This document shows, in pieces, positions 12,483 through 55,900 of a DNA stretch of 64,000 nt. The stretch covers positions 702,608 to 766,607 of the forward strand of contig NMRA01000053.1 of assembly GCA_002633005.1 (NCBI GenBank), read 5' to 3'. The position numbers and the translations under genes were made by a program. How positions within the stretch are numbered: the stretch's first letter is position 1; every line of letters begins with the position of its first letter. The DNA comes from Phoronis australis (lineage: Eukaryota; Animalia; Phoronida). The notes under the pieces were generated by a model. The model was not told the origin of the DNA, made no database searches, and saw only the letters and a program-made list of their open reading frames with translations.

Positions 12483-17362
<4,880 letters not shown>

Positions 17363-23865: not shown

Positions 23866-25138
<1,273 letters not shown>

Positions 25139-25186: not shown

Positions 25187-25806
25187 NNNNNNNNNNNNNN
25201 NNNNNNNNNNNNNNNNNNNNNNNNNNNNNNNNNNNNNNNNNNNNNNNNNNNNNNNNNNNNNNNNNNNNNNNNNNNNNNNNNNNNNNNNNNNNNNNNNNNN
25301 NNNNNNNNNNNNNNNNNNNNNNNNNNNNNNNNNNNNNNNNNNNNNNNNNNNNNNNNNNNNNNNNNNNNNNNNNNNNNNNNNNNNNNNNNNNNNNNNNNNN
25401 NNNNNNNNNNNNNNNNNNNNNNNNNNNNNNNNNNNNNNNNNNNNNNNNNNNNNNNNNNNNNNNNNNNNNNNNNNNNNNNNNNNNNNNNNNNNNNNNNNNN
25501 NNNNNNNNNNNNNNNNNNNNNNNNNNNNNNNNNNNNNNNNNNNNNNNNNNNNNNNNNNNNNNNNNNNNNNNNNNNNNNNNNNNNNNNNNNNNNNNNNNNN
25601 NNNNNNNNNNNNNNNNNNNNNNNNNNNNNNNNNNNNNNNNNNNNNNNNNNNNNNNNNNNNNNNNNNNNNNNNNNNNNNNNNNNNNNNNNNNNNNNNNNNN
25701 NNNNNNNNNNNNNNNNNNNNNNNNNNNNNNNNNNNNNNNNNNNNNNNNNNNNNNNNNNNNNNNNNNNNNNNNNNNNNNNNNNNNNNNNNNNNNNNNNNNN
25801 NNNNNN
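25187..25806. other. Assembly gap (N run)
   Basis: 620 N characters. Confidence 1.
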
Positions 25807-31683: not shown

Positions 31684-31716
31684 CCATAAAAGGAGCGGTG
31701 ACATAACCATATATGG
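31684..31716 (+). promoter_or_regulatory. Two perfect CArG boxes in the actin 3 promoter
   Basis: CCATAAAAGG (31684-31693) and CCATATATGG (31707-31716), about 170-200 bp upstream of the ATG. TATA-like TATAGAA near 31779. SRF sites are canonical for actin promoters. Confidence 0.8.
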
Positions 31717-31882: not shown

Positions 31883-33710
<1,828 letters not shown>

Positions 33711-36253
33711 ACTTTCCTATACATCAGTCTCCTGATTTCTTAAGTTGCAATCCAATATTGATACAGCACACACGTTGCCTTTGTTGTCATTGTTATTTGC
33801 TGAAATTGTTAAAGGTAAATATTTTATAGTTTTGCTAACTTGTTATTGTATATGCACCTGAATCGAAACAATAAAACCAAAGACAAATTGCGTTGTTTTA
33901 TTGCCTTTCCCTGGAGTTGCGAATGTCTGGTAATAAAGAAATATTTGCAAGCCACTCCGCTACAACTGTGTGGGTTATTAAATATGGGAAGACAGATGTC
34001 CTGGCTTGTCAACTAGGCAAACTTGTGAAATAGTTGCTACACTCTCGTTGCGATTAAACATAACCTTTGATTTCGGCCTTTTGTTATAAAATTGGTGTTT
34101 GCCTGTTGCGGTTTTTGGTAGGCGGGGATTATTGGACTAGGAAAGAACAGGCTGTCTATTATTTCATAGCCTTAAGTTATATGGAGGCTCGTAAGTGGTT
34201 GCTCTAGAACACCGTGTGTACAAAACAATAATTGAAAATTCGATGTTTGTAATTCCGTGCCTAACTTAGATGGAAGACGCGATTTAAGTTCAATCTGACT
34301 AAATGGGCTGTGCGTGCAGATTTGACCGCCCCCTATTGCCTATGGAACGAAGTGCTCAGCGATCGTCAGGTTATTGATATCTCGTGACCATGAAAAACTT
34401 CCTGGTCCACCGTATCTGTTTCAAGAGTGACATAATCAATCTTTGTCGAATGTCGTCAAATTAAGCTCCTCCATAGTCGATCGTTTTTGTTTTAATCCTA
34501 TGATTTATTCAAATAAACGTATCTCTCTACAGTTGCTTACTTGAATTACCTTCATTCCGTGCAAAAGATAACTGTGCCCACGTCCCCATGGCTCGGATAC
34601 GCCACAGGGTGTCGTCTCACTCAGATTGGATTCGTCATTTGATTTTTACTCAAACGCAAACCTGCCAGTTGGCGTACGCAGTCGCCTTTGACGGCTCATC
34701 TCAAAAAGGTGTGTCCGCTGGACGCAGGCGATCCAAATCCGACCGCGTCCGAGTGCCGCGATCCTTTCATCAAGCGAAGGAGGAATATATTTGTTTTCTC
34801 CTGATTACTGAGATACATCCGTTTTTCAATGAATTTTACCATCACATCCTATCTTTGTAGATTACACCGTTCTGTTAGTCTGTTCTAAGTAATTTTTTTC
34901 CGGTGCTCGAATTTCAGTTGCGTCGAAATAGGCCTACTATTAACAAATGGAAGGCCATTCGTTGTTCGATTGAGTGGGACCAGCCGATTCACTTTATCAT
35001 GCTTCAACGAGTTATCTTCTATCACAACAGAGTATTGTTTCACGTGCTGAATAATCGCTGAAAAGCGATAACAAAGTAGGATTGAAACGCGGAATTTGAA
35101 CCAAGATTTCTAATACTAGACGCGGCCGGCGGGGATTTCCCATGATATATTTGTTACTCGATGCCATGATAGAGTTGGTTTTGTGCAGCGTTAGTTTTCT
35201 GACAGCTTTCACTTCCTGATTTGTGAACTTGCCGAAATGACTGACGTATTATACTGCTATCTTTCACGTTTGAAAAGGACTAATTGTTATTTTGTTACTT
35301 AATTTTGTACCAAATCAACTAATTGAAGTCCGACAACTTCTTAAAAATAGCTGAAATAACGTAACTGTTTCACTTAAAACTGCACAACTTTTTGTTTTGA
35401 AATCCGATGTCATTTGCAATGTGTCTTTTAATTCATACAGAAAAATAATGTCATGATTACTCAGTGACAGTTGTGACTCGATTTTGGGAGGTCTTTGTTA
35501 TAAAAATGACGAAGGAAAAACTCTATTAACTTGTGAGCATGAGACTATGAGGGAATCCTATAGTACTTCATAAGACAATGAACCCGTCTTCTGTCGAAAA
35601 GTACTTTTGGTTCAGATCACTCACCGTAACAAAAAGGCAGTACACTAGGTCACTTGTCGCTGAGTTCACTGACATACAACGGAAAACCTAGGACCAATAT
35701 CAATGTATATTACTCCCAGAGAAAACTGAGTTAAAATAGAACGGAAAACGTTAATAATATTTTCTAATTCGATTTCCAGTAAAAAGATAAATTCCGACCT
35801 CAGGCATAGCTCGTGTACGACATGTTAGACATCGACGTATTTTCTATTCTTTCAGTTCATCAATTATTTGATAGGTAGCTCATAAAGACTAGACGAAAAA
35901 CACAACAATTGCCGAACATGAAATATGTTAACGTCGACACTGACAAAATTTATTATGTAAATAGGTGCTTTTTTGAAAACTCTTTCGCGGGAACACAAAG
36001 ATACCCACTTACGGTATTGCGCGGGTAGATAACCAGCCAGTCGGTAAAAGTTTCTTACTAACAGGCGCCGTCTCTCCTCAGATCACGTGAGCACAGTTTG
36101 CTTTTGTTCGATATTAACAATTCCGTGCATAATAGCTTCAACTTAGCCGAGGTTATCGATCTACTACACCTCGTTTACCGGTAGGCCCTTCAGTAAATAT
36201 ACTGCAAGAAATGTATGTAGGAGAGATGCAGTCCAGTGACAGTGAACTTAGGG

Positions 36254-36260
36254 TATAAAA
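36254..36260 (+). promoter_or_regulatory. TATA box upstream of the divergent actin
   Basis: TATAAAA about 150 bp upstream of the ATG at 36404. Confidence 0.5.
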
Positions 36261-36403
36261 CCAAGAAGTGTACGGGAACTAGGATTCGAGATCGATACCT
36301 GTCTACGTCATTCAGACAGACCTGTGTGTGTGTATAGATAACAATCCACGAACTTCACTTTTGAGCAGTGAGCGCTTGGTTAGTGTCGGGACACCTTGAC
36401 AAC

Positions 36404-39400
36404 ATGGACGGCGATGGCGTAGCAGCTGTGGTAATCGACAATGGTTCCAGCATGTGCAGAGCTGGTTTTGCAGGCGACTCGGCTCCCAGGGCCGTTTTCC
36501 CGCCCATCGTTGGCCGTCGTAAACATCAGGTAAGACACGCCAAACTAAACATAAACGGGCTTAGCCCATTAGATCTCCCATTGATAGACTACACTGGGAT
36601 AGTCTATCGTTGAGGCCAGCCCGCAAAAACACTTGTATTTCCTCGGCAGTGAACTGAATCTTATTAAGTGCCATATTTTCTCTCCTTATTGCGTTCAACT
36701 AGACTGCGACTACGACTATCATTTACGTGTGATCCATAAAAAGATGTTCCCTTGAGAACTCTGGTTCTGGCTGTCTAACGTGGTACAGGGACCTACAATT
36801 ACGTATACTAGCTGAGATACACTTTCGTCATAAGCCTACTGTGGACATAATGCGATTGACACTTTGGGATGCACACTCTCCAGCCGTCGGGTCTCATTCA
36901 TATTGTGGTACGTAAATGCAAATTTCCTCTTCAACGTCCCCTACTGAGTTGGTTGACTCATTTTTTATCTTTCTGACCTAAAATAAATCTGTATGTCTGG
37001 ACTTTGCTGCGAGGCGGGGAGTGACATAGATATGCCCAAATATGGCAATTATAATTTACTTGAGGAAAACATAGTTTTTGAAGATGTTTTAGCAAATATG
37101 ATGATTATTGTGATGCAATAAGACTAGAATGAAAGCAAACACCATTCAAATGAATAACATTTTTTTTTTCAAATCCCTTTGTAAGCATAGAATACAATAC
37201 AATATCAATCTTGAGGAAATGTCACTTGTATTTACGTGGATGTTTTTGCAATTACGATAACACTACTTAAATTCACTGAGACTCTACCAGGCCTGAGGCT
37301 AGTATGAAAGCAACCTCCTGGATTCAATTGAATAACATTTTTTTCAGAAGGTTTTGTAAGTATAGCAACAAAATCAAATAAATATAAAAGCAATTTATAA
37401 AACATATAACTATAATATCTTTGCTGGTGAATCCCCGAGCTAAACACCGACCGCATCAATTTCCAGAGTGCCATGGTAGGCATGGATCAGACGGACACAT
37501 ACGTCGGTGACGAGGCTTACGTCAAGAGGGGAATTCTTGTCCTAAAACACCCCGTAGAGCAAGGTATTGTCACCAACTGGGATGACATGGAAAAGATCTG
37601 GCACCACACCTTTTACAACGAGCTCCGTGTCGCCCCCGAGAAGCGCCCTGTTCTGTTGACTGAGGCCCCGCTCAACTCCAAAGCCAACAGAGAGAAGATG
37701 ACACAAATTATGTTCGAAACCTTCAATTCCCCCGCTGTGTACGTGGCTATGGATGCTGTTCTTTCAATATACGCCTCCGGAAGGACAACAGGTATTTGAA
37801 ATAGTGTATGACTGGTAATCTTGATTTCGCACACTGGACACTTCGGCATCAACGAGGGCTATTTTGGGAGAGATAACTATATTCTCATAAGTAACAGAAA
37901 TTAATGAGCTTTGAGCACAAGCCATGCAAAAGTTTCCTCAAAAAGAGCAAAATATTAACTTTATATCAGCCTGTTTATCGAGCTCACAGCTTCGTGAAAA
38001 ACTGACTACAGAAAATATTTTAAAAATGCCAATGCCTACTGAGTCAGATGTTGTTGATGCGAAATGGTCGCTCTGTTCAAACTGACATCTAAAGTGATTG
38101 TCCGTTCTGCCCACACAGACCACATTTTAAAAGTGGTTACATAACAGAAATCGCAAACGCATTTCCCTTGCTAAAGAGGCAGTGTTGGTGGATATACACC
38201 TGTTATCCATTTTCTGAAACACCCAAAAACCGGCGCAACGTAAATTTCGCATACCAATTGACTATGACAAAGTTTTTTTTCTTAAACATACGCAGCCCAA
38301 AACTGCCTTTTTGTCCGAACCCTTGAGCATAACAAGTACACATAACCTAAAAAACGAAAAGGACGAGTAGTCACAAACTGGCATTGGGGGGCGTGTTAAA
38401 ACTGCTACAGCCCGACTTTAATCAGTAAAAATAACTGTTGAGTTAGACCATTTAGCGCGTCAGTAAAACTGGTTGTATCCTTTCTCTGATTAGAAGTGAA
38501 TTACACCAGTTTTTGGCCATAATAGAATCAAAAAAACGGACAATCGCCGCATATCGACACTTGATGTCTGATTGCTTGCATCCTGATGATGCGCGACGAT
38601 TGTCCGTTTTTTGATTAGAAGTGATATCTTAGGTCGGGAAGAGCTTTCAGTTCATAACGAGCCCTAGCAAGTCGGTTTCATTGCAACTGCAAACTGTCGG
38701 TTCTTTGGAAGTTCCGAAAGCGGTTCTGATTTTTGAAAATGGATTTATAATGATAAGTGCTCTAATCTGTTTGTCACCTCTGAAAATCGGCGAGTGGCAA
38801 CTTAACGAGAATCGGAGATCCTCTTAATTTTCGTGCGCGCACCCAGCCTAAAATATAGGGGCGCTCGAATTTCTCGATATGGGGATCTTTTACTGAACAA
38901 AATCAACTAGGGCTAAAAAACAAAACGGGGCCATGAATTGTGCATCTGCGCTTGTGTCCTTTGTGCACTTTTGTGTCGTTTACTCGGACTTTTTCTTCTC
39001 TGAGACGGTCCTTTTTGCCCAATTCGCCAGANNNNNNNNNNNNNNNNCCCCCCCCCCCCCACCCCAGGGTGTGCCCATGATTTTTTTCAAATCGGATATT
39101 GAATCACTGGAGACCATGATGAGTGCAGCTAAATTTATCAAAATTGTGTTTTCAATTAGAGACGCCCACTCTTCTTCCAAATTTTAGCCGATTTTTCAAC
39201 AAAGAACTAGATTTCATCGTCATCATGAGCAGTTCAGGCAATGAGTACGGACCGGCATTAGTCCACGCCAATGGCAATTGTTTTGTTTTCATAAAAACTA
39301 AAGCGTCGCGGTTTAGTTGCGAACTTGTAGTACGACTGATAGTAGATTACAAGCTTTTTAAAAACAGAATCAGAGTTGCTTCGTAACAGAGCTGCACGTT

Positions 39401-41346
39401 TGTCTTGTAGGTATTGCTGTTGATTCTGGTAACGGTGTCTCTCGTACTGTGCCCGTCTATGAAGGTTATGCCTTGCCCCACGCCATTCTCCGTCTGGACT
39501 TGGCCGGTCAAGCCCTCACGGACTACCTCATGAAGATCCTTATAGAGCGTGGGTACAGCTTCACCACCACGGCCGAGAAGGAAACTGTTCGTGATATCAA
39601 GGAGAAGCTGTGCTACGTCGCCCTTGACTTTGAGCAGGATATGCAAACTGCAGCCTCGTCCTCGTCCTTAGAAAAGAGCTACGAACTTCCTGATGGAAAG
39701 GTAGTAATTATTGTTACATCGAAAAATGTCGATGTTCGTGACTGAGGTCAGAAATTAATCTTTGAATCATTTGCCAGCAAATACAAAAATGGGAGCATTT
39801 TAACATACAAAAACTTCTCTTCTCGACGTTTTCATACTCTGGTTACAAAAGAATGTCAAAATTCTCTTCTAAAAAGATCCTGTCATATCAAAACCAAGTT
39901 TGAAAGCGACAGTCTCCGGCGTCATATTGTACAGTCGGTGTAGAGCCATCTGTGGGCGATACCCTTTGTTTATGTATTCTTAACAGCCACTAGGAGTTGT
40001 TAGTTTTGTACGCGTGAGAAAAAATAAGGATATTATTGAAAAACCATGTACCAAATGGAGTTCATTGATTAGGCTTCAATGGGAAATAATTAAGATTTTC
40101 TGCAGCTAAACTGACTTAAGTCAGATTGAAGCAATCTCCCAAGTTTCTTCTCCTCTCACCGGTTACGAATTTCCCGGCGGTATCAGTTTCCTTCCGTCAG
40201 TTGCCCACGAACTGACACGGGGTGATGAATGGATACGGTGACGCGGACGGTCACGGAGCTATATGAATTGATATACGCTAAATGGTGCGCTTCACACAGT
40301 ACGTAATACAAGTGTGAGTTTTGGCGTGTCCGCTGTTCAAGGAACTTAGAGAAATGTCAAATTTTGGCTAACTTCAGATCATGATATCTCAAAAATGGCC
40401 TGTGATCGGATTCGTATGAAACTTTCAGAGGCTACGCATGAACTAAGTATTGTGGTAGGAGTTACTTTTAAAATGTTCCAACTTTTGCACGAGGTACTAT
40501 TAAAAATGACGTTTATGGTGTCCATGAAAAACAATTAAAAAAGAAGTGATATTTCAGAAAACTGAAATAGCGTCTTTGAGATCTCACCTTGAACATTGAC
40601 ACCAAATGAAATTTGATCATGTTATTGATACCGTTGTTTTGCTTTCAGTGTACATTTTCTTGAAAGACATAGTCAAGTAAACCAATTACCGACAGCCTTT
40701 TGATAAAAGATCAAAAATCAAAATTCTTCAGACTTTATATTGTCAGAAACTACTTAGTTAAAATCAACAGTTTTATAGATATTTGATTAAATATGCACCC
40801 TTATCAATGAAGTGATACATTACATTAATTGACTTGTGCCGTTATTTTCCTTTTGTCAGAGCTCCTGGCATAACAAACGTCGTAATTGATTTAGTACCCT
40901 ACTTTGACACTTGTATTTCAAACTTGTCAATCATTTTCTAGGTCGTCACTATAGGTAACGAGCGTTTCCGTTGCACGGAGGCCATGTTCCAACCTACTTT
41001 ACTGAATATGGAAGGTGTAGGCCTACACGAAATGGTGAACAGGTCTATCTTGAAGTGTGACACCGATATCCGCACTAAGGTTTTGTACAACAACACAGTC
41101 TTGTGCGGCGGTAACACCATGTTTCCCGGAATAACTGAGCGTATACAAAAGGAACTTTCTGCCCTGGCACCAACAAACACGCAGGTCAAGGTTATCGCTA
41201 CACCCGAGCGTAAATATTCCGCATGGATTGGCGGTTCCATTTTCGCCTCCTTGCCCAGCTTCCAAGAGTTGTGGATCAGCAAACAGGAATACGAAGAGTC
41301 TGGTCCAAGTATTGTTCACCAAAAGTGCCCTGGTACTACGGTGTGA
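36404..41346 (+). CDS. Actin 4, divergent actin-like protein, 381 aa, intact reading frame
   Basis: Exons 36404-36529, 37467-37791, 39411-39700, 40942-41346 = 1146 nt. Intron positions match actins 1-3, all GT-AG, no internal stop. [29 protein letters not shown]...[11 protein letters not shown]. Confidence 0.93.
37036..37045 (+). promoter_or_regulatory. Perfect CArG box in intron 1 of the divergent actin
   Basis: CCAAATATGG. First-intron CArG enhancers are known in actin genes, but a single site could be chance. Confidence 0.4.
38526..38616. repeat. About 90-bp hairpin or miniature inverted-repeat element
   Basis: aatcaaaaaaacggacaatcg ... cgattgtccgttttttgatt, with arms of about 20 bp. Confidence 0.7.
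38832..39079. mobile_element. MITE with C(A/G)TG termini and 5-bp TSD (ATTTT); same family as 44132-44383
   Basis: atttt|cgtgcgcgcacccag...gggtgtgcccatg|atttt. The internal segment ctcggacttt...tctctgag...cctttttgccc is shared with the 44.2-kb copy. Confidence 0.75.
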
Positions 41347-42569
41347 TTTCATGCAGTTATCAGATGTCTCAAATCCTCCAGGCTACTCACGTGCAGTGAC
41401 TATCATCAATTTTCCTCTCTATGACACCACGAATCCTTGCATTTTACTCTTGTGGTGGAACTGCATTCAGGGTTCAATAGAACTTCACTTTATGGAAATG
41501 TTCTATAGGATCCCATGGTAATTTGGATTTCCTGTAAGAATCTGTATGGTAGACTTTTGTATAGGAAGTCTTGCAAAAAAGAATCAAATAGAATTTCTCA
41601 ATTCAAATTGTTTATTGGTAGCTGGACGATTTTAGTGTAATTTCAAGTCTTAAGGTTTTATGAGATGTAACCATGACAATTAAAAATAAATAAGCCTGCT
41701 GTTCAGTTAAACCACACTCATGGAATAACTCGATTTGGTCACGGGTAAATATGACCACTGTGTCAACAGTGCGAACTGAAGCCCTCATCACCCAGCCAAT
41801 GTTCTCACATTCTCCAATTGCTACAAGAAATCCCTTTTAAGGAATTTCACCTATACGAAACTATCAGAAAATTTATATACCGAAATAGGTCTGCGCAACT
41901 AATGTTCTCAACTTTTTCCTCACTTCCGATCGGACGTTAGGCACATCATCGAATGAATTTGTAAACGTTGTCTCATTTTTAGAGATTTAGAGTTGCCGTT
42001 AAAATGTTTTAAACATATCCAAGGTTGCGATGATGCGGTCAGTAACATGAGGTTATTGTAGAATATGCAGTAAATGTCAAAAGCATGTTACTTTTCGATA
42101 TTGGCCTTGTTAAAACATTGATAGCTACGGTATGAGAACTTGTAAAAAAGTCTATGCAAGAAAGTCTCATTTGATAATTATTTATTGAAGCAATGTCATA
42201 GAAGCTTCTTGAGTATAATCATTGTTGATTGTAAAAGTATTCCTATTTTGTATTTTATATATGTTGAATAAAAAATCATAGCTTTTGTGTATTAGTCATC
42301 ACTCCGAGAAAAACTCGCGCATAACGAAATTCAGTCAGCACAGGGACATTCAGCGGGCACGTCGACATTCAATCGGCACGCCGTCATTCCGTCGGCACTG
42401 ACGACTTTCGATCGGCCGAACGCAGACGAGGTGATCAGCTCAGTGCTATCATGCCCTTAAACTTGCAACCAAATAAATTCCTGTATCACAAACTATATAT
42501 TAAAATCACATCTCAAGATTTCAAGGCCACGTACAGCGACAATGACGTCCAAGTCGCCCAATTTCACCG

Positions 42570-43704
42570 CACCATAGTGTCTCGGTAGGTCGATTGAGAG
42601 GCGAGGATTCTGGAAAAGCTAGACATCGCCTTCAGTTGTACAAAATATTAGGAAGGCCACAAAAAATCCGTGCCGCTGCATCCTTTGAGACACATCAGTA
42701 CGGCCATTTTATTTAAGTCGATCCTACGACATTATTCAATTCAAAGCGACAAACGCTTAAAGATCACTATCGTACGCCATAATGTGTGCACACCGATGAC
42801 GTTTGGTAGTTATAACTAAAGTTAATTTCAATTTTGATTTTTTTGTTATTTGCCTTTAGTTGTAACTAAAATCGAAATCCCTCGCCACATGTTTATTATT
42901 CATGGTTAGATCATCGATATCCGCCAATGTATTCAATTCAAGATCAAGCAAAGTATGCCGTCTTGGAAGTCGTAACCTTGCGCACGTCCACCTGCACATT
43001 TGTTGAAAGACAAGCGACAGTTTGCTGCTAAATATGTCACATTCCTGACGTTGACACCTTGTCATTCCCATTACACAAACAATGCACAACAGCATCCCTG
43101 TAATTAGCAGTAATTACAAACACAATACTTGATTAANCACCATAGTGTCTCGGTAGGTCGATTGAGAGGCGAGGATTCTGGAAAAGCTAGACATCGCCTT
43201 CAGTTGTACAAAATATTAGGAAGGCCACAAAAAATCCGTGCCGCTGCATCCTTTGAGACACATCAGTACGGCCATTTTATTTAAGTCGATCCTACGACAT
43301 TATTCAATTCAAAGCGACAAACGCTTAAAGATCACTATCGTACGCCATAATGTGTGCACACCGATGACGTTTGGTAGTTATAACTAAAGTTAATTTCAAT
43401 TTTGATTTTTTTGTTATTTGCCTTTAGTTGTAACTAAAATCGAAATCCCTCGCCACATGTTTATTATTTATGGTTAGATCTTCGGTATCCGCCAATGTAT
43501 TCTATTCAAGATCAAGCAAAGTATGCCGTCTTGGAAGTCGTAACCTTGCGCACGTCCACCTGCACATTTGTTGAAAGACAAGCGACAGTTTGCTGCTAAA
43601 TATGTCACATTCCTGACGTTGACACCTTGTCATTCCCATTACACAAACAATGCACAACAGCATCCCTGTAATTAGCAGTAATTACAAACACAATACTTGA
43701 TTAA
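42570..43704. repeat. About 567-bp tandem duplicate joined by a single N at 43137; probably uncollapsed haplotypes
   Basis: 42570-43136 vs 43138-43704 differ by only a few substitutions. Confidence 0.9.
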
Positions 43705-46963: not shown

Positions 46964-49900
46964 TTACAAGTATGACGCGTAGAATTCTTCCAGCTCTTTG
47001 ACTAGTTCTTCCTTCTCACCAGGTGGCAGAAATGTGCTTCGAGCAGCATTCAATGTCTAGAATGTCAAATTATGACAAGAACTAGAAACAAGTGTATACA
47101 ATGTGCATGCAAAAAAAAACAACAAACAATGCCTTATTTTGAAACTCTTATGAAATCCACCATCCACCACTATGCAACAAGAGTTAAATTACGCAATAAA
47201 TTTTTTTCCTCCCAACACACATTTAAGAAGGTGTGAAGATGACTTATTATTTCAGTAAACTTATCTATGAAGAGTTGATGAAGCAATCCTTGAAGTAATC
47301 TTTGCCTACACACGTGAAGTCGTAATTTACACGTTGATGTTTAGCTGACTATAGTCTATGCAACTGCGCTGTCTAAAGTGTTATTGACGTAGTGAATATT
47401 GACACGACATGTGCCATGTGGACATGTTAAGTACATGCCAAACTTATTCTCAGCCAAAATGACCAAGAATTCCCCTATGGGCAGAAGTGAAATTCATCAT
47501 TAGAGTGGCTTTCCCTCGTGACCGAGAAAGAAGGACAATTAACAGGTAAGTTGGTAAGGTGGTTGAACCATTCTGTAATTAGAATTTTGTTGCCCTAATT
47601 ATAACCAGCCATTTTTACTGTTATCAGAACTGGCGGTGATGAGGGAAGAACTCTGTTTTGTCCGATTACTTTTGTCATGTGAAGCTGCAATAAACGTGTC
47701 ACAAACCGACTTTTGAATCCAGCAACTCACTTTAATAAAATTATTCTCATCTTGTTGTTAAGACCAAAAATTATTTCTAGGATACAGAAGAAGTTATAGG
47801 CTGTCGATGCTTTAAGCAGGTCAGGCCCATTAAATTGTCTGTCACAGCAGAGTAGTTTCAGATGCTAATGCAGTGCGGGCATCAGAGAGCCTTTGGGACT
47901 TATTGTAACCGATTGTCTTCAAACAAAGAAAAAGAATGAGTTGTTTGCTTTGGAACAGCAAATACGCCTGTGAAGAAAGTTGCTAACAGCTTGCACATCA
48001 TTTCTAAATGTTAAATCCTTGCCATTGATTCCATACCGAAACACAAGATAGCGCTACCAGTAGGTGTTTAGTGGCTTTAGGATGATGAATGCTGTAGTAG
48101 TTTCTTACCCAAATTCTATCTTTTCATTGTTAAGAAAACTTAATGACTTAGACCACTCGTTACTATGAAATAAGTCTCATCTTGTTCTGTGCTCAGATGA
48201 GAAGTGATTTCGAAATCCTCTACAATTTGACAGTAAGGAACAACTTGAGACCAATTTAATGACAGCAAATGGTCTAAATCATAAGGTGGTTTTTGTAAAG
48301 GAAGGTGGCTGAACAGCCATATTGAAAAATCTCGCTAAACAGTTGGAAACAAGAAACTTGAATGCATCAAAAAAATAACTAACTGCCTCAACTAGCTGTT
48401 GTTCCGTTAGTTTGATTTCCGTCCTACAGATGGCAAACTCATCGTCCAGAGTAGATTTGGTCAAGACTGGGTCATCCGTGTTGATCGAGAAATTAGCACC
48501 TTCATCAGCCATCCTACAACAGTAGCAAGCCTGAATATAAATAAGCTCTCCACAGATAGTACATCTTCTACAGGATATTTCACAAAAGATTGTGACAGAA
48601 AAATGGAACATGGCACGTTGTTGAAGATTTGTAGGCTAACAACTCTCTAGTCTAAGCTGGATGGACATTTGTTTTGTTCAAGCCGATACTGCTACTACTA
48701 CAGATCTAATGATTTCTCAAACTGATGTTCATTTTGTCATTAATTAGAAAATTATAGCGTTGCAGGATTGGAGTTGAGACTCTCAAGAGCAGCTCAAGCT
48801 TAAACCCTGCTTTGGTTGGCAGACAGTGAGCAGTTTATTACAAAAAGAAATAATTATCAAGTCATTTAAACGATGCAGACAGCTAGTATGGATACTGCAA
48901 TATCAATATAGTTCTCAGCACGACCTCAAAAATAGGAATAAAAAAAGTCAGAGTAAGAGATCCACACAGGGTTCATAAGCACAGATGGGCTTGGACATTC
49001 TGAGAAATAGATTGGAGTGAGGAGAGCCTCTTAAGACAATAATAATCAAGTCACCTTTTCACTGGGTGTCTTGCCCAATCCTTTGGCACTGAACCCGTAC
49101 AGAAGCTGGAATGTGGGCATGTCTCAAAGTGAATGTTAAGCTGCTTCAGATTAGTGAATAGCTGTTCATCATCCATCACATGGTAGCCGTGTCCAATGCG
49201 CTCGGCAAAGAATTCATAGACTGCCTGAAAACAACATTACGATGCAATTATCATTATCAGAGTCTGTGTGACCCAATTGTGCTGATGGATTGCTATATTT
49301 GGTGGGGCGACAGTGGGCACAAGGTCCAAGTTGTCTGGGCAATAAAGGTCAAATGAACGAAATAAAGTCCATTCATTTACCAAGCCACAAAGTCCAAATA
49401 TCCCAATACACTACTGTACTCTATCATTATTTAATACTTTTGACCAAAAATTCCTCCTTCACTATCAGTTGTCAACAATAAAATAGTGACTTCACTTGCT
49501 TGTAGTCTTAATTATTGAGTAGAGCAAATATTTGTAATTCATTAAGTAATTAACATTTGTGGTGGCAAGATTTACCTCAGCATGACTGGACAGCATGTGC
49601 CTTGAGAATCATTCATACCAAAAAAGTTTGCAAGAAAAATTCAATGTATTCTGAAGCTCATCTTCGATCTTTCGTTTTCCTTCATTTGTTATAGTTGCAC
49701 TCATACTAAAACCAAAGTTGCAATGGGCCCGTGCTTTCAATTCTGGTGAGCTCCCGTGACAAGTGTTGTTTTCTTACGTTATTCACGTCACATCGAGCTA
49801 TGTATGAAGTCAATGGATATTTTGGAGCCAACAACGGTCCAAGATTTGCGCAGACAAAATCCCGATCACTGTCCACTTACCTCGCGTACATTCTCTGCTG

Positions 49901-52900
49901 TGCCGTTCTCCCCAGCATGCACTGTGCGGTGAATGTTCAATTCCTTCGCTTTGATGAACATATTGCGGTGATTCTCATGAACTGCCTCAGTCTCCGTCAT
50001 ATTCTCGTCACCAGCCATGTCAATACCCACTACGCCAGCATCTTTATACTTAACAGCCAAATCCAAAATGGTATCAGACCAGTCTGAAAAATAATGTGAA
50101 ATTTACATAGCTCAACATGGATTCAGGATTAGGATCAGAGGGAGGATTTTTCAATCTTGTAGGAAAGGACAAGACGACTGGTGCAACCTTTCTGGGCCCC
50201 CTTTAAATCACTGCAGGGTTTGACGTTAACTTTTTTAGTTACTAGTCCCATGAGTTACAATGTCTCTCAGAAAAGTGACATGATAGAACTTGTTGGAATG
50301 AGGTGCAGACTCCAATGATCCTGTTTCCTTCCATCTTGGAACACAAAAATCAACCAAACTGATCACTACCTCAATGCGGTCAAGCACAAAGTCGCCTTAA
50401 TTGAGTTCGACTGCTAAATTAGCATTTTTCTATTTATTTGAAAACTAACAACATTAACTGCAAATAGTATAAAATTCTACCACTCGATGTTGTTTGGTAA
50501 CAGTTGTAGTGTAGTGCATGCTAAAAGAAAAGTAAAATTTCATGAACAGCTGATTTTTGTTGTAAAATCAAACTGATCGCTATTGCCACATTACAAATAT
50601 CCCCTAAACTTTCAACTCCAAACAATCTAGCCCATTGTGAAGCCCTCTTGCGATCTTTTGTAAAACGCTAACAAATAATACGCCAATTATGTACCCCAAT
50701 TACATTCCTTGGTCAACAAAACTGACACAATGCCATAATTTTTAGATAAATATTTATGGCATATTTCTTTAGGAAAAAACATACGGGGAATTCAACCTCA
50801 AAAATTAAACAGATCGAAAAATCAAAAATCCCACTGAGGCAAAAAAGCTGCCAATATAAATGTTGACGCATATCTTTCTGTCATTCAACAGCTCAAGCCA
50901 CACCCATCCACTCACCTGGCCTATGTCTCATCGTGCACAGAATAGTACGCACTTTGATCCCAAAGTCCCTCTGACCATCATGCAATGCCCTGTTCACAAC
51001 CTGAACCACATGTTCCGGCGTCAGGTGACCTGGCTCTCCCTCGTGGTCAAGATTGTCATAACAGTTGGCAAGGATGTACGGGCTGTAGCGCACTTCTGTG
51101 TAGTAAGCGTTCTGACGAGCACAGTCTTCACAGAACTCGTAGGCAATTCTGTATATGGCATCATCATCACCCCTAAATTAATGCAAGTTCAAGAATAGAA
51201 AATCAGGTAAATTAATAATGCAATAAACCCACACTTTCCATCAAAAAACAAGTCATTATGCCATAAGTGGAATGGAAGTGGTTTAGGTGAAGATGACAGT
51301 TGACAACAGGGGGAAGGGGATCTGCCTTCTAGTGGCGTCACCATGTGATACATTAAAGGAAACGGAGAACAACTCCCTCACAGTACACTGTCAGGAAACT
51401 AAGAGCAACTGCCTCAAAGTACACTGTCAGGAAACTAAGAACAACTCCCTCAAAGTACACTGTCAGGAAACTAAGTACAACTCCCTTACAGTACACTGTC
51501 AGGAAACTAAGTACAACTCCCTCAAAGTACACTGTCACAAAACAATGTTACCCTCTTAGTGGGACTTACTTCAATCCTAAACTGGGTATGCCAATTTCAT
51601 GCTTGCCACATTTCATTCTTTTACAAGGCATTAGTATGCAAAATTTGATGCGAGCAATGCAACAAAATGGCACTCCCGCATCACTGCCTAACCAATCACT
51701 GACATCCACATGGCTACGTGACATCATTGGGTTTCAAAACGTACATGATGGGATGCGCCATTGTGCCTGAGGTCACCCCGGGATGTTCACGACGATGTAA
51801 TTAGGGGCTCATGACAATGGCAGAAAGGGGTAAAAAGAGACAAAGTTTGGATTCTTAACGTAATAATGAACTGCAGGGATCGACGCTATTAAAATCGCCA
51901 GGTCGCATTTTGCGACCTAGCCAAAATCCCAGGTCGCATTTTCAAAATCCAGCTCGCATTCGTAAATGCCAGGTCGCAAAATTTTCGCGCCATTTTTACG
52001 CGCCAAAATAGATTGTTTAGATCATCGAGAAAATGTTTAGATTATGCTCTTACCTGCAGCGTTAAATACAAGTTTCGGATCTCAAAATTGACTTCATTCA
52101 TGCAGGTACGGCCTTACTGTTCTTCACGACCGCCATTGAAAGACTCTAGAGAGCAAGGCAAGTTGCCGACGTGAAAGTTGAAACAGTGCTCTGTAACTGA
52201 CTTGTGCATTCGAGTAGCTAAATTTGCGATGTGAAAAGGGAGAAAATGTCCGTTGAAAAAGTATCCGGGATTTGTTAGATCTGGCCTGCTACTGCCTGTC
52301 ATCAAAGTCGTTAACAATTCAAACTAACTCGGGTAATGGCGAGTTTGCTCCTCAATACATTCCAAGTACGGGAAAAATAGGTCAGTCACAAAACGACACG
52401 CATGTCACTAGTGTTAACTTTCTTTCCGAGGTATAAAACAAAGCCGGGATTTGGTTTTTACATATTGTGAAAAGACGTTTTTGAAAACTGAAGTTGTGTA
52501 AAATGAAAGTGACACACCATATAAGCTGCGTGTCAATTTCAAACCACACGCGGTCGTTTGTAGTGCGCTATGATGTGCGTTAGCTTGAACTGTGGGCGCT
52601 TAATTGGAAATTCTCAAAATTTAAGGGGGGACTTTTAATAGATCAGTGAGCGCTTATTATGAAACATTTTAAAGGTAGAGAGTAGNAGTACACTGTCAGG
52701 AAACTAAGTACAACTCCCTCACAGTACAGTGTCACAAAACTATGTTCCCCTCTTAGTTGGACTTACTTCAATCCTAAACTGGGTCTGCCAATTTCATGCT
52801 TGCCACATTTCATTCTTTTACAAGGCGTATAGTATGCAAAATTTGATGCGAGCAATGCAACAAAATGGCACTCCCCCATCACTGCCTAACCAATCACTGA

Positions 52901-55900
52901 CATCCACATGGCTACGTGATATCATTGGGTTTCAAAACGTACATGATGGGATGCGCCATTGTGCCTGAGGTCACCTGAGGATGTTCATGACGATGTAATT
53001 AGGGGCTCGACAGGAAGGGGGTGAAGAAAAGAGATGATGATAATGGCAGAAAGGAGTAAAAAGTGACAAAGTTTGGGTTAACGTGATAATGAACTGTCCC
53101 TTACGGTCATAAAACTGGTCAATATTGTTCTAGAGACCCTGGTTTCATTAGGCGCAACATTATATTTCCCAGCAAAACTCAGTATAGTTAAGTAGCCGCC
53201 CTTCGTTAACAGAAACTTGTTTAAAGACACAACTGCATTTTCTGTTGGATAGCTTCACAATAAATACACTTGGTCATATTCTCTGTACAGTTTTCAATCA
53301 TCAGGTATACAGTTAAGAAGTAAATTGCCAGTAGACATAGTGCGTATATATTGAAGCAGAGAGGAAAATGCGAAAAATAGTTTCATTAGGATTCCGGTTC
53401 AGAGATTAAACCCCCATGCCTGGATTTATTATAAGATTTAAAAGAAAGAGAAAAATAAAACAGCAACTCACACAATCGGTGGCACAATAACAGTAAATGC
53501 ATGTAGAAACTTGGTCAGGCATTGTGCGTGTGATATGGAATCAAAATAATCCTTCAGCTTTGACAGAGTATCCAGCTCTTTGGGTAGAGTGATCCCTCGC
53601 TTTCTGTTGAAAGAAAAATACAGTTGAAATGTTACTGCAATGTAATAGGGGGTGTAATGCAACCTTACCACAAGTCCTGAAAACTCTTACCACGTGCAAA
53701 CTATGCTTATCAAGGAACCTGTGCCCGGTTGCATGAAACAGTCCCAAATAGGGACTCACCTAAGTTCCCTGAATTTACTGCTTATTTGTGGACTTGTGAA
53801 AATGCCGATTGATCTTTCTTCTACTATTTTAGATTCATTACGTAGTCAACTTTTGACTTCGATAAAAAATCGAGAGTGAACTCAAATTGGCAATATTATT
53901 GAAACTATTTAGGGATCTTTTCATGCAACACTCCTAACTTAAGGACTAAGTCCCTATTTGTTTTCATTGAATTCAGGGCTCAATTTTTAGTTATTTTATC
54001 AGAAATTCTAACTTGATAAGGAGGTCATAATAAAGATGAAATGATAGACAAAGATTCTATCTGAGAGTAAACAAAGACAAACATAGGCAAAAGATTTAGG
54101 GATCTTAGTAGATTCCCTATTTGGGACTGTTTCATGCAACCGGCCACTAAATTCCACCCACCTTCTAGCACTCTTGCCATGTTCAAACAGTGACTGGCAA
54201 CGCACAACTTAGAAATTGTGTTGAAAGTGCCCGTGTGTGGCAAGAGTTGTTATGCATGGTAAGAGTGTTTGTGGTGCATGGCAAGGGTGCACACCCGCGG
54301 CAAGAGCTGGTTTACACACTCTGGGTAACAACTTATGAGCAATTACAGAGATAATTTGACTGTAAAAGTGCCAAAATCAACCTACCCACTCCCAGGAGCA
54401 ATCGTTGAATTCAAGTTGGTTCAAACTGCAACTACGAAATGAATGTAAACATGGTATACTGAAGAAAGCTAGTTTGCATTTCAGACAACGACGCAGTTTT
54501 CTTAAGATGGCGCCATGCTTGGATCCTTTAAATGCAGACTATACTTACTGAGAAAGTTCAAAGATAGTCTCAGGTCTCACTGCTCCATCTAGATGTACAT
54601 GCAGATGTACCTGAAATAGAATACGACAAACAAAACTGATGTCTACGTTTCATACAAAAGACACCACACTGACTTAAATTCCTTCATATCCAACACATCT
54701 CACCACAAGGAAACTGCAATATGGCAAAACAGATTGTCATGAGTACCATACTTCAATAACAATGATCAGCTCAAGATAGCACATCATATCTGTGTCATGG
54801 CATAAGCTGAAAAAGGTCTTTAAAAACCACAACTGCACCAACCATGCTACTTCATTTTTATTGGATGTACAGTAATGAGCAACAAATTAGATTTGAGCCA
54901 ACAGCATTGAATACCAAGAAATGTCTAAAACAGCTCTTTGATGAGTCAGAAAAATGTTGATTTCCCCTAAAGTCAACAGTATGCTTACTTTCTTCATTAG
55001 GTGAGAGTCTTGTGGAGAGAACGGAGAGCTTTCATCACGGCCCTCCTCACTCATGTCAGCGTGCATGGTGGCCACTACGAATCAACCACACAAAAGATGC
55101 CAACCTATAACTAGAACAAGTACTTTCATATGTTACACGTACTCAGCAGTGATGCTTTTATGTTCTTTCGAATCTCCATTACAGTATGCATTAAATGTAT
55201 TTGAAATTTCAACTTCTCTAACCAGCCAGCTTCTGTGCCCGCTAATAGGCAGGATAGACACTCTGTACTCCCTAATATTACCATCCTCTAAGCCAGGTGA
55301 GTAGAGACACTCTGTATTCCCTAATATTACCAACCTCAAAGCCAGGTGAGTAGAGACACTCTGTACTCCCTAATACTACCATCCTCAAAGCAAGGAGAGT
55401 AGAAACACTCTGTAATCCCTAATATTACCAACCTCAAAGCCAGGTTAGTAGAGACCTTCTGTAAACCCTAATATTATCAACCTCGAAGCCAGGTGAATAG
55501 AGACACTCTGTACTCCCTAATATTACCAACCTCAAAGCCAGGTGAGTAGAGACACTCTGTATTCCCTAATATTACCAACCTCAAAGCCAGGTGAGTAGAG
55601 ATCACGACACTCTGCTCATGATAAATTCACCCTTTCCTCACTCATCACCACACTGTTCTCACTTACTGTTCCTGGCTCAGTATTTGTTACTTTTTGTTTC
55701 TGTACAACATTTGCAGAGTCAAATCACATCCTCAACAGGGAACCAAAATCTGGACCAGTCAGATTTTTGCACAAAGTGACTGAGTGACTTACTTATAGGA
55801 ATTCTCAACTATTATTCTATCACTCCCCTAAATGCTTGAGCATTAATACCAGACCATGTTTATGTACAGTCATCAGTCATCACGAACACGAAGTAACTCA

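What the first reader, a model, noticed from the sequence alone, without database searches (positions are those of the whole stretch)
36404..41346. Intact divergent actin with its ATP-hydrolysis and phosphate-release residues replaced
Seen (conventional actin numbering): G15S and K18R in the phosphate loop, H73Q (CAA 37560-37562), Q137D (GAT 37752-37754), D157N (AAC 39431-39433), H161R (CGT 39443-39445). The D-loop is also remodelled ([15 protein letters not shown] vs [15 protein letters not shown]). Established: Q137 and H161 position the lytic water, methyl-H73 (the SETD3 target) gates Pi release, and these residues are near-invariant in conventional actins. The frame, splice sites, a TATA box and an intronic CArG box are all intact. 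Inference: an expressed, lineage-specific actin that left the conventional ATPase cycle (slow-hydrolysing, non-treadmilling or structural), born by tandem duplication.
Basis: partly seen in the sequence, partly recalled or inferred. Interest (0 to 1): 0.8.

Follow-up and report, generated by a model that had tools for sequence, protein, structure and literature searches.

The report
Expressed actin copy, remodelled ATP site
A mollusc- or worm-type animal carries, beside three ordinary actin genes, an intact and transcribed extra copy whose ATP-splitting residues are replaced while its charged filament contacts are kept, so it likely builds or joins slow-turnover actin filaments; divergent actin copies are known in other animals, but we found no relative with this residue set.

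Summary
A four-exon, 381-codon actin gene (36404-41346, +) is intact and 79% identical to its conventional neighbour. It carries all six listed changes, plus R183Q, D184A, P112S, S303N and a replaced C-terminus. It is transcribed and spliced: 41, 25 and 20 sense reads cross intron 1 in three RNA runs of one study, at about 1-5% of the neighbour's depth. dN/dS against the neighbour is 0.21 and the introns no longer align, so it is not a young pseudogene. Conserved actin sites are spared overall, but catalytic-side pocket residues changed at a roughly unconstrained rate (8 of 19; P 0.001-0.1 by residue set). The adenine side, D11/S14/D154, the N111-R177 phosphate gate and 14 of 15 polar filament contacts are kept. 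G15S is a published filament-stabilising mutation. Best reading (0.5): an ATP-binding, slowly hydrolysing actin that co-polymerises into stable filaments. The kinetics are untested. The TATA and CArG boxes are at chance level. No orthologue was found. It is a new variant of a known kind: lineage-specific divergent actins.

The parts
36404..36529 (+). Exon 1 coding part (M1 to Q41); G15S at 36449-51, K18R at 36458-60, D25S, P38R, R39K
   Evidence: covered by sense RNA reads with no listed difference
36162..36403 (+). Transcribed 5' leader (start not fixed); contains TATAAAA at 36254-36260, which reads of run X4 run through
   Evidence: depth and variant tables
36530..37466 (+). Intron 1 (937 nt, GT..AG, codon 41/42); CArG-like 10-mer at 37036-37045 is at chance level
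   Evidence: spliced out in 41, 25 and 20 reads
37467..37791 (+). Exon 2; D-loop changes, H73Q (37560-62), P112S (37677-79), Q137D (37752-54)
   Evidence: first ~107 nt covered by RNA reads
37792..39410 (+). Intron 2 (1619 nt, GT..AG, codon 150), with a 16-N gap at 39032-39047
   Evidence: splicing inferred from paralogue structure, not tested in RNA
39411..39700 (+). Exon 3; D157N (39431-33), H161R (39443-45), R183Q (39509-11), D184A (39512-14)
   Evidence: not tested in RNA
39701..40941 (+). Intron 3 (1241 nt, GT..AG, codon 246/247)
   Evidence: splicing inferred, not tested in RNA
40942..41346 (+). Exon 4 to stop; Thr insertion after R290 (41074-76), S303N (41113-15), K326Q, F375 replaced by a five-residue tail (41329-41343), stop TGA 41344-46
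   Evidence: not tested in RNA
31883..33710 (+). Conventional actin B, head-to-tail upstream neighbour and likely parent; same three intron positions
   Evidence: 3' UTR deeply covered by RNA
23866..25138 (-). Conventional actin C, exons 2-4 (exon 1 not found; probably in or beyond the N gap 25187-25806)
12483..17314 (-). Conventional actin A (exon 2 present twice, 15780-15456 and 14760-14436)

Best explanation
This is an intact, transcribed and spliced duplicate of the neighbouring actin gene whose catalytic-side residues are replaced, and its protein likely still binds Mg-ATP and polymerises or co-polymerises with ordinary actin but is predicted to split ATP slowly, giving filaments that would age and turn over slowly. 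Shown: gene structure, transcription and splicing of intron 1, purifying selection on the fold, release of constraint on the gamma-phosphate side of the pocket, retention of the adenine side and of the charged subunit contacts. Inferred from published mutants of ordinary actin: ATP binding is kept (D11, G13, S14, D154, G156, G158, K213, E214, G301, G302, K336 intact); water positioning and activation are impaired (Q137D, H161R, two of the three residues whose triple alanine mutant is ATPase-dead yet polymerises); nucleotide-state sensing is blunted (H73Q, which cannot be methylated, and loss of both partners of the D157-R183 contact); cofilin severing is reduced (G15S). Its role as a minor, cell-type-specific stabilising subunit is inferred from its low expression; the tissue is unknown.
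For: Expression: intron 1 is skipped by 41, 25 and 20 sense-strand reads in runs X2, X3 and X4, with intron depth at most about 1. Exon-1 bin depth is 46, 27 and 23 against 1020, 892 and 2421 for the neighbour's first 3' UTR bin (ratios 4.5, 3.0 and 0.9%). Selection: against B, dS 0.60, dN 0.125, ratio 0.21. Neutral simulation at 0.3 changes per site keeps an open frame in 2 of 2000 runs and leaves 53% amino-acid identity against the observed 79%. Introns, upstream and 3' regions of B and D give no blastn match, so the copy is old. In the 234 coding bases laid, the reads differ from the window at 3 synonymous and 0 non-synonymous sites (Fisher P 0.014). Pattern: only 22 of 76 substitutions fall on the 183 most conserved sites (37.6 expected, P 4e-5), yet 8 of 19 pocket residues named in the papers read are changed (2.3 expected from a fit to the rest of the protein). 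Of the recalled adenine-side list 9 of 10 are kept. 14 of 15 polar inter-subunit contacts named by Chou and Pollard are identical and the fifteenth is R39K. M44, Y143, Y169 and all 10 hydrophobic myosin/ABP-patch residues named in PMC8698748 are kept. Literature passages: Q137A/D154A/H161A actin binds nucleotide and polymerises but does not hydrolyse (PMC6867828); G15S stabilises F-actin and resists cofilin (PMC6168249); R183 contacts D157 (PMC10643162).
Against: No kinetics or structure were obtained. Pocket enrichment depends on the residue set. The 19-residue set came from passages I searched partly with the altered residues. Sets less exposed to that bias give P 0.013 (3 of 5), 0.056 (3 of 8), 0.034 (4 of 11) and 0.11 (6 of 24, recalled) against a conservation-aware null, and none of these four is significant against a uniform null. 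Retention of filament contacts is not significant by itself (P 0.15). 4 of 9 D-loop/W-loop/M44-pocket positions are changed (P38R, L142I, I165V, G268N) and F375, buried in filaments, is gone. D154 is kept, Q137A alone only slows hydrolysis, and relatives such as MreB and Hsc70 use an acidic residue at this position. R183G and R183W speed phosphate release 1.8- and 2.9-fold. G15S was characterised in otherwise normal actin. A loose-end consensus of 6 reads in run X3 suggests a W86C allele (P becomes 0.045 if it is counted). RNA evidence covers only the 5' 234 coding bases, comes from one study and is of unknown tissue.
Confidence: 0.5

Rival explanations
1. A functional but non-filament actin: a monomeric or complex-bound subunit (nuclear, capping or partner-sequestering) that holds nucleotide as a structural cofactor, as Arp4 does.
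For: F375 is lost, with V43A and I136M in its pocket; P38R and a remodelled D-loop; H-plug changes. The acidic N-terminal/D25 patch is reduced and K326Q is present. Arp4 keeps ATP without hydrolysing it (PMC3510490). The divergent sponge actin HdA6 was detected only in nuclei (PMC12146513).
Against: 14 of 15 polar filament contacts are identical, fewer changes than 17 of 20 comparator actins of 72-83% identity. There are no large insertions of the kind that block polymerisation in Arp8.
Confidence: 0.2
2. A rewired but active ATPase: Asp137 acts as a carboxylate base and Arg161 stabilises the leaving phosphate, so the protein cycles normally or faster.
For: The changes come in charge-balancing pairs (Q137D with H161R; D157N with R183Q, a published contact; H73Q with D184A, contact recalled and not found in the passages read). 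MreB and Hsc70 have acidic residues at 137. Arp8 with E266 and K288 keeps a low ATPase. Q137D and R183Q each need two base changes.
Against: Asp is shorter than the Gln/Glu used elsewhere (own knowledge). Asp at 137 occurs in 0 of 455 aligned rows. The rate of change in the pocket (42%) is close to the 47% expected with no constraint at 0.3 changes per site, so loss of function explains it without rewiring.
Confidence: 0.15
3. A transcribed copy that was constrained for a long time but is now redundant and decaying; the pocket changes are early damage.
For: Expression is low. There is a possible W86C allele. No orthologue was found. If half the synonymous change is on its own branch, branch dN/dS is about 0.4. 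About 100 random missense-class changes avoid a stop with P 0.015, which is not vanishing.
Against: The frame is open with a single in-frame insertion although its introns no longer align with the neighbour's. Substitutions avoid conserved sites (P 4e-5; Spearman 0.28 outside the pocket). Read-versus-window differences in the laid coding part are 3 synonymous and 0 non-synonymous, against 7 substitutions and 3 indels in the 5' leader.
Confidence: 0.12

Closest known systems
Conventional cytoplasmic-type actin (neighbours A, B, C; PDB actins)
   Same: Actin fold (Pfam PF00022 on all four exons), no large insertions, identical intron positions, 296 of 376 residues identical to B, adenine pocket and polar filament contacts kept.
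   Different: Q137, H161, H73, G15, K18, D157, R183 and D184 are replaced; F375 is replaced by a five-residue tail; the N-terminal acidic patch is reduced; expression is about 1-5% of B.
Sponge divergent actin HdA6 (Halisarca dujardini; PMC12146513, passages read)
   Same: Intron-containing lineage-specific paralogue, about 74% identical to human actin, about ten-fold lower mRNA than the main actins, substitutions in functional regions.
   Different: Independent origin. The paper's main text has no mention of Q137, and I did not see its alignment figure or supplements, so the pocket state of HdA6 is unknown to me. HdA6 has protein evidence and nuclear location; this gene has none yet.
Drosophila Arp53D and other non-canonical Arps (PMC8291977, search abstract and one passage)
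   Same: Rapidly evolving, lineage-restricted member of the actin family kept beside conventional actin.
   Different: Arp53D has a 40-residue N-terminal extension and testis-biased expression. This gene has no N-terminal extension, and its tissue is unknown.
Engineered actins: ATPase-deficient Q137A/D154A/H161A (PMC6867828) and filament-stabilising G15S (PMC6168249)
   Same: Two of the three catalytic positions are replaced, and the same G15S change is present.
   Different: D154 is kept; the replacements are Asp and Arg, not Ala; about 75 further changes surround them.
Arp8 / Arp4 (PMC3510490, passages)
   Same: Arp8 also differs at G15, H73, Q137 (acidic) and H161; Arp4 holds ATP structurally.
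   Different: These are ancient nuclear subunits with large insertions and no filaments. This gene is a 79%-identical duplicate of actin.

Membership tests
Conventional actin | Actin domain over the whole length, no large insertions | tested here: met
   Pfam Actin on 4 of 4 exons; one 1-residue insertion and a 4-residue longer tail
Conventional actin | Very high identity to other actins (about 90% or more; threshold recalled) | tested here: not met
   78.7% to B; branch 0.37 against median 0.0075
Conventional actin | Catalytic set Q137, D154, H161 | tested here: not met
   Only D154 kept
Conventional actin | Methylatable H73 | tested here: not met
   Gln; SETD3 target per PMC10072879
Conventional actin | R177-N111 phosphate backdoor and S14-G74 bond | tested here: met
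   All four residues kept (roles)
Conventional actin | Polar inter-subunit contacts of F-actin | tested here: met
   14 of 15 identical, R39K
Conventional actin | C-terminal C374-F375 | tested here: not met
   C374 kept, F375 replaced by five residues
Conventional actin | Polymerisation-coupled ATP hydrolysis and treadmilling | not testable with these tools
   Needs recombinant protein
Canonical Arps (Arp1-Arp10, ArpT) | Ancient orthologous lineage, distant from actin | tested here: not met
   Same 3 introns as the neighbours, unsaturated dS 0.60, exact shared runs of 25-41 nt; the best 60 PDB matches shown are actins. No Arp1 or ArpT sequence was in my tree, so tree placement against them was not tested
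Non-canonical lineage-specific actin paralogues (Arp53D / HdA6 type) | Derived from conventional actin, with accelerated protein evolution under constraint | tested here: met
Non-canonical lineage-specific actin paralogues (Arp53D / HdA6 type) | Kept across related species | tested here: inconclusive
   No hit closer than ordinary actins (at most 71% for exon 4, 85% for exon 2); sister species may be absent from the databases
Non-canonical lineage-specific actin paralogues (Arp53D / HdA6 type) | Tissue- or germline-restricted expression | not testable with these tools
   Three runs of one study, tissue not given
Pseudogene | Disabling lesion in the frame or splice sites | tested here: not met
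Pseudogene | No spliced transcript | tested here: not met
   (intron 1 only)
Pseudogene | Neutral evolution | tested here: not met

The most novel reading that the evidence does not exclude
A natural non-ageing actin. Selection kept the filament lattice but removed the ATP timer, and arrived at the laboratory stabilising mutation G15S together with charge-paired changes (Q137D/H161R, D157N/R183Q). A minor isoform would then dope ordinary filaments with permanently ATP-like, cofilin-resistant subunits and set filament lifetime by composition instead of by hydrolysis.
Probability: 0.25. Interest if true: 0.75.

Novelty: new variant of a known kind. Interest (0 to 1): 0.5.

Why it matters
What ATP hydrolysis buys an actin filament, and how the nucleotide state is passed to cofilin and other regulators, has been studied mostly with engineered mutants. 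A natural, expressed actin 79% identical to its parent, with the catalytic side replaced and the filament contacts kept, is a ready test object. It can be expressed beside its 376-residue neighbour and the residues swapped one by one. If it is merely another divergent tissue-specific actin, it adds one more case to a recurring class.

Tried and rejected
No whole genome is held, so other copies of this gene elsewhere in the assembly could not be sought; the RNA reads could come from a near-identical copy. Orthologue searches found nothing closer than ordinary actins: exon 4 against longer proteins (5949 hits, best 120 seen, highest identity 71%), exon 2 against similar-length proteins (3175 hits, best 120 seen, highest 85%) and exon 2 against 50% cluster representatives (best 150 seen, highest 84%). 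The protein tree (113 rows, quick method; only stretches of at least 340 residues and 70% identity) left the gene as an unresolved long branch among animal actins. It neither shows nor rejects sisterhood with A and B, and the gene does not join the other divergent mollusc/bryozoan group. No RNA holder was listed by the index. Run X1 (share 0.16) had no contig on the 5' part of this gene, which says nothing on expression. The TATA and CArG boxes were rejected as evidence. No promoter homology was found between B and D. The D-versus-A figures from exon 3 onward are invalid (exon 3 of A was off by one base; corrected) and were not used. A myosin-contact term search in PMC10072879 found nothing. 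The H73-D184 contact was not found in the passages read. A paper search for Q137E returned 0. No structure was predicted, because the spliced protein is not available as a single reference, so active-site geometry remains open. Not in print as far as searched: searches listed no title describing this gene; the species is not identified, so an annotation in a genome paper or its supplements cannot be excluded. No supplements were read.
Full report
Setting. The window holds four actin genes. A (17314-12483, minus), C (25138-23866, minus, exon 1 not found) and B (31883-33710, plus) encode conventional actins differing by a few residues. The gene in question, D, lies head-to-tail behind B. A nephrocystin-3 gene further on has its best matches in snails, Lingula and annelids (86-77% identity among the top rows), so the host is a lophotrochozoan animal; I did not identify the species. 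Tandem actin clusters are described in the snail Biomphalaria (PMC5440852, passages).

Observation. D has exons 36404-36529, 37467-37791, 39411-39700 and 40942-41346, three GT..AG introns at the same codons as its neighbours, and an open frame of 381 codons. It is identical to B at 296 of 376 residues. Further changes are I71V, P112S, R183Q, D184A, S303N, D25S, E100K, K326Q, a Thr after R290 and a five-residue tail in place of F375. Among 484 aligned stretches of 371 fetched actin-like proteins, Asp137 occurs in 0 of 455 rows and Ala184 in 0 of 275, and no row carries more than 2 of the 8 states tested. That set is biased to close actins, so it does not cover Arps. The TATA and CArG motifs are as frequent as in shuffled sequence.

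Expression. Three RNA-seq runs with the same species label, from one study, were laid on 33711-37575 (about 18-19% of each run read). Intron 1 is skipped in 41, 25 and 20 reads from 24, 19 and 16 start places, on the sense strand, and intron depth is about 1 or less. Depth over exon 1 is 46, 27 and 23, against 1020, 892 and 2421 at the start of B's 3' UTR. That is roughly 1-5%, with the caveat that a 5' part is compared with a 3' part. A fourth run, kept as contigs, had no piece on this part of D. The reads differ from the window in the 5' leader by 7 substitutions and 3 indels. In the 234 coding bases laid they differ at three synonymous sites (two in the variant table, one from loose ends) and no non-synonymous site (P 0.014). 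Against this, the loose-end consensus of 6 reads in run X3 reads TGC for TGG at codon 86, just beyond the laid stretch; if real it is a W86C allele. Introns 2 and 3 and exons 3-4 were not examined in RNA.

Origin and selection. D shares intron positions with A, B and C, has dS 0.60 and dN 0.125 to B (ratio 0.21; about 0.4 at most if the synonymous change is split evenly), and shares exact runs of 25-41 bases with them. At synonymous sites where A and B differ it sides with B 25 times and with A 12 times (P 0.047), which fits a tandem copy of B. Its introns and flanks no longer align with B's, whereas B and C still align at 89% across introns, so D has been separate for long. A neutral copy at 0.3 changes per site would keep its frame in 2 of 2000 simulations, and at 0.125 in 47 of 2000. 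Its substitutions avoid conserved sites: 22 of 76 on the 183 most conserved positions, 37.6 expected (P 4e-5). The protein tree places it as a long unresolved branch among animal actins.

Where the changes fall. Of 19 pocket residues named in the passages I read, 8 are changed: P 0.024 against a uniform spread, and 0.0007 against a fit to the rest of the protein. I searched those papers partly with the altered residues, so the set is not blind. Less exposed sets give 3 of 5 (P 0.013), 3 of 8 (0.056), 4 of 11 (0.034) and 6 of 24 (0.11, recalled list) against the fitted null, and none is significant against the uniform null. Among 20 comparator actins of 72-83% identity, none has more than 1 of those 5 changed, but one has 3 of the 8 and one has 6 of the 24. 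The fair reading is that the gamma-phosphate side is free of the constraint that holds the rest; positive selection is not shown. The adenine side keeps 9 of 10 recalled residues, and D11, S14, G74, N111, D154 and R177 are intact. Of 15 polar subunit contacts named in bioRxiv 10.1101/309534, 14 are identical and one is R39K (P 0.15 by itself). Hydrophobic contacts are more altered: P38R, L142I, I165V, G268N, and F375 lost along with V43A and I136M in its pocket. The ten hydrophobic myosin/ABP-patch residues named in PMC8698748 are all kept, while the acidic patch (N-terminus, D25) and K326 are weakened.

Mechanism. Published passages: Q137 holds the attacking water and D154 and H161 activate it; Q137A is slow but not dead, and the triple mutant is dead (bioRxiv 10.1101/2022.03.29.486216). 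The triple mutant still binds nucleotide and elongates filaments at nearly normal rates (PMC6867828). The main phosphate exit is the R177-N111 gate opened by an H161 rotamer; R183 contacts D157, and R183 mutants release phosphate 1.8- to 2.9-fold faster (PMC10643162). G15S actin forms more stable filaments that cofilin does not bind (PMC6168249 citing Posern 2004). H73Q in Plasmodium actin II impairs oocyst development (PMC10019781). From these I infer an ATP-binding, slowly hydrolysing subunit that can still enter filaments and slows their turnover (0.5). A non-filament structural role (0.2), a rewired active site using Asp137 as MreB and Hsc70 use an acidic residue (PMC3137890; 0.15) and recent decay (0.12) remain open. 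None of these steps was tested biochemically or structurally.

Comparison and novelty. Lineage-specific divergent actins are a known kind: Drosophila Arp53D (PMC8291977) and sponge HdA6 at about 74% identity (PMC12146513). The mollusc, bryozoan and fungal divergent actins fetched mostly keep the pocket. Earlier unchecked notes of this scan describe a shark paralogue and Asgard paralogues without the hydrolysis residues, so loss of these residues recurs; the shark gene is reported to have lost filament contacts, which this one keeps. D fails membership of conventional actin on catalytic residues, H73 and the C-terminus, and it is not a canonical Arp. All papers were seen as search listings and keyword passages only (for PMC13156746, and PMC10072879, likewise); no whole text or supplement was read. 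Paper searches listed no title describing this gene.

Verdict. Real, expressed and constrained; a new variant of a known kind. Interest 0.5: the residue combination makes a clean natural test of what the ATP timer does, but there is no orthologue, tissue or biochemical evidence yet.

Noticed in passing
window 13882-14912 and 14914-15931: A 1-kb block with exon 2 of actin A is present twice (94.8% identical) on either side of a single N; probably two haplotypes joined by the assembler, possibly a real exon duplication.
   Followed up: partly
window 42570-43136 / 43138-43704 and 51490-51873 / 52687-53096: Further near-identical repeats next to single Ns (99.3% and 87.9%), the same assembly signature.
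   Followed up: no
window 23866-24692 and 32863-33710: Actins C and B, in opposite orientation, align at 88.9% across exons 3-4 and the intron between them; exon 2 is 96-98.5% identical among A, B and C, which suggests gene conversion from which D has largely escaped.
   Followed up: partly
window 31684-31716 and 33711-34520: Actin B has two CArG boxes about 170-200 bases upstream of its start codon; its RNA ends mainly near 33869 and 33882, with a minor longer 3' UTR to about 34500.
   Followed up: partly
protein P0050 (fungus Flagelloscypha, tandem actin-actin model), first domain: Shares H73Q, P112S, H161R and S303N with this gene, among 12 shared substitutions; each of the four is a single-base change from the codon in B, so convergence under relaxed constraint is plausible.
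   Followed up: partly
proteins of about 535 residues among P0066-P0095: Many bivalve, gastropod and chiton actin models of about 535 residues appear to repeat part of the actin domain; some carry H73N with D184H.
   Followed up: no
window about 49866-51177 (minus) and 57713 to beyond 62000 (plus): Exons of an adenosine deaminase family gene and of nephrocystin-3 flank the actin cluster.
   Followed up: partly
window 35687-35719: A 33-base piece attracts RNA reads with foreign ends on both sides; probably a fragment of a repeat transcribed elsewhere.
   Followed up: no
window 41679-41690: ATTAAA and AATAAA about 335 bases after the stop of D are candidate polyadenylation signals; not tested in RNA.
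   Followed up: no
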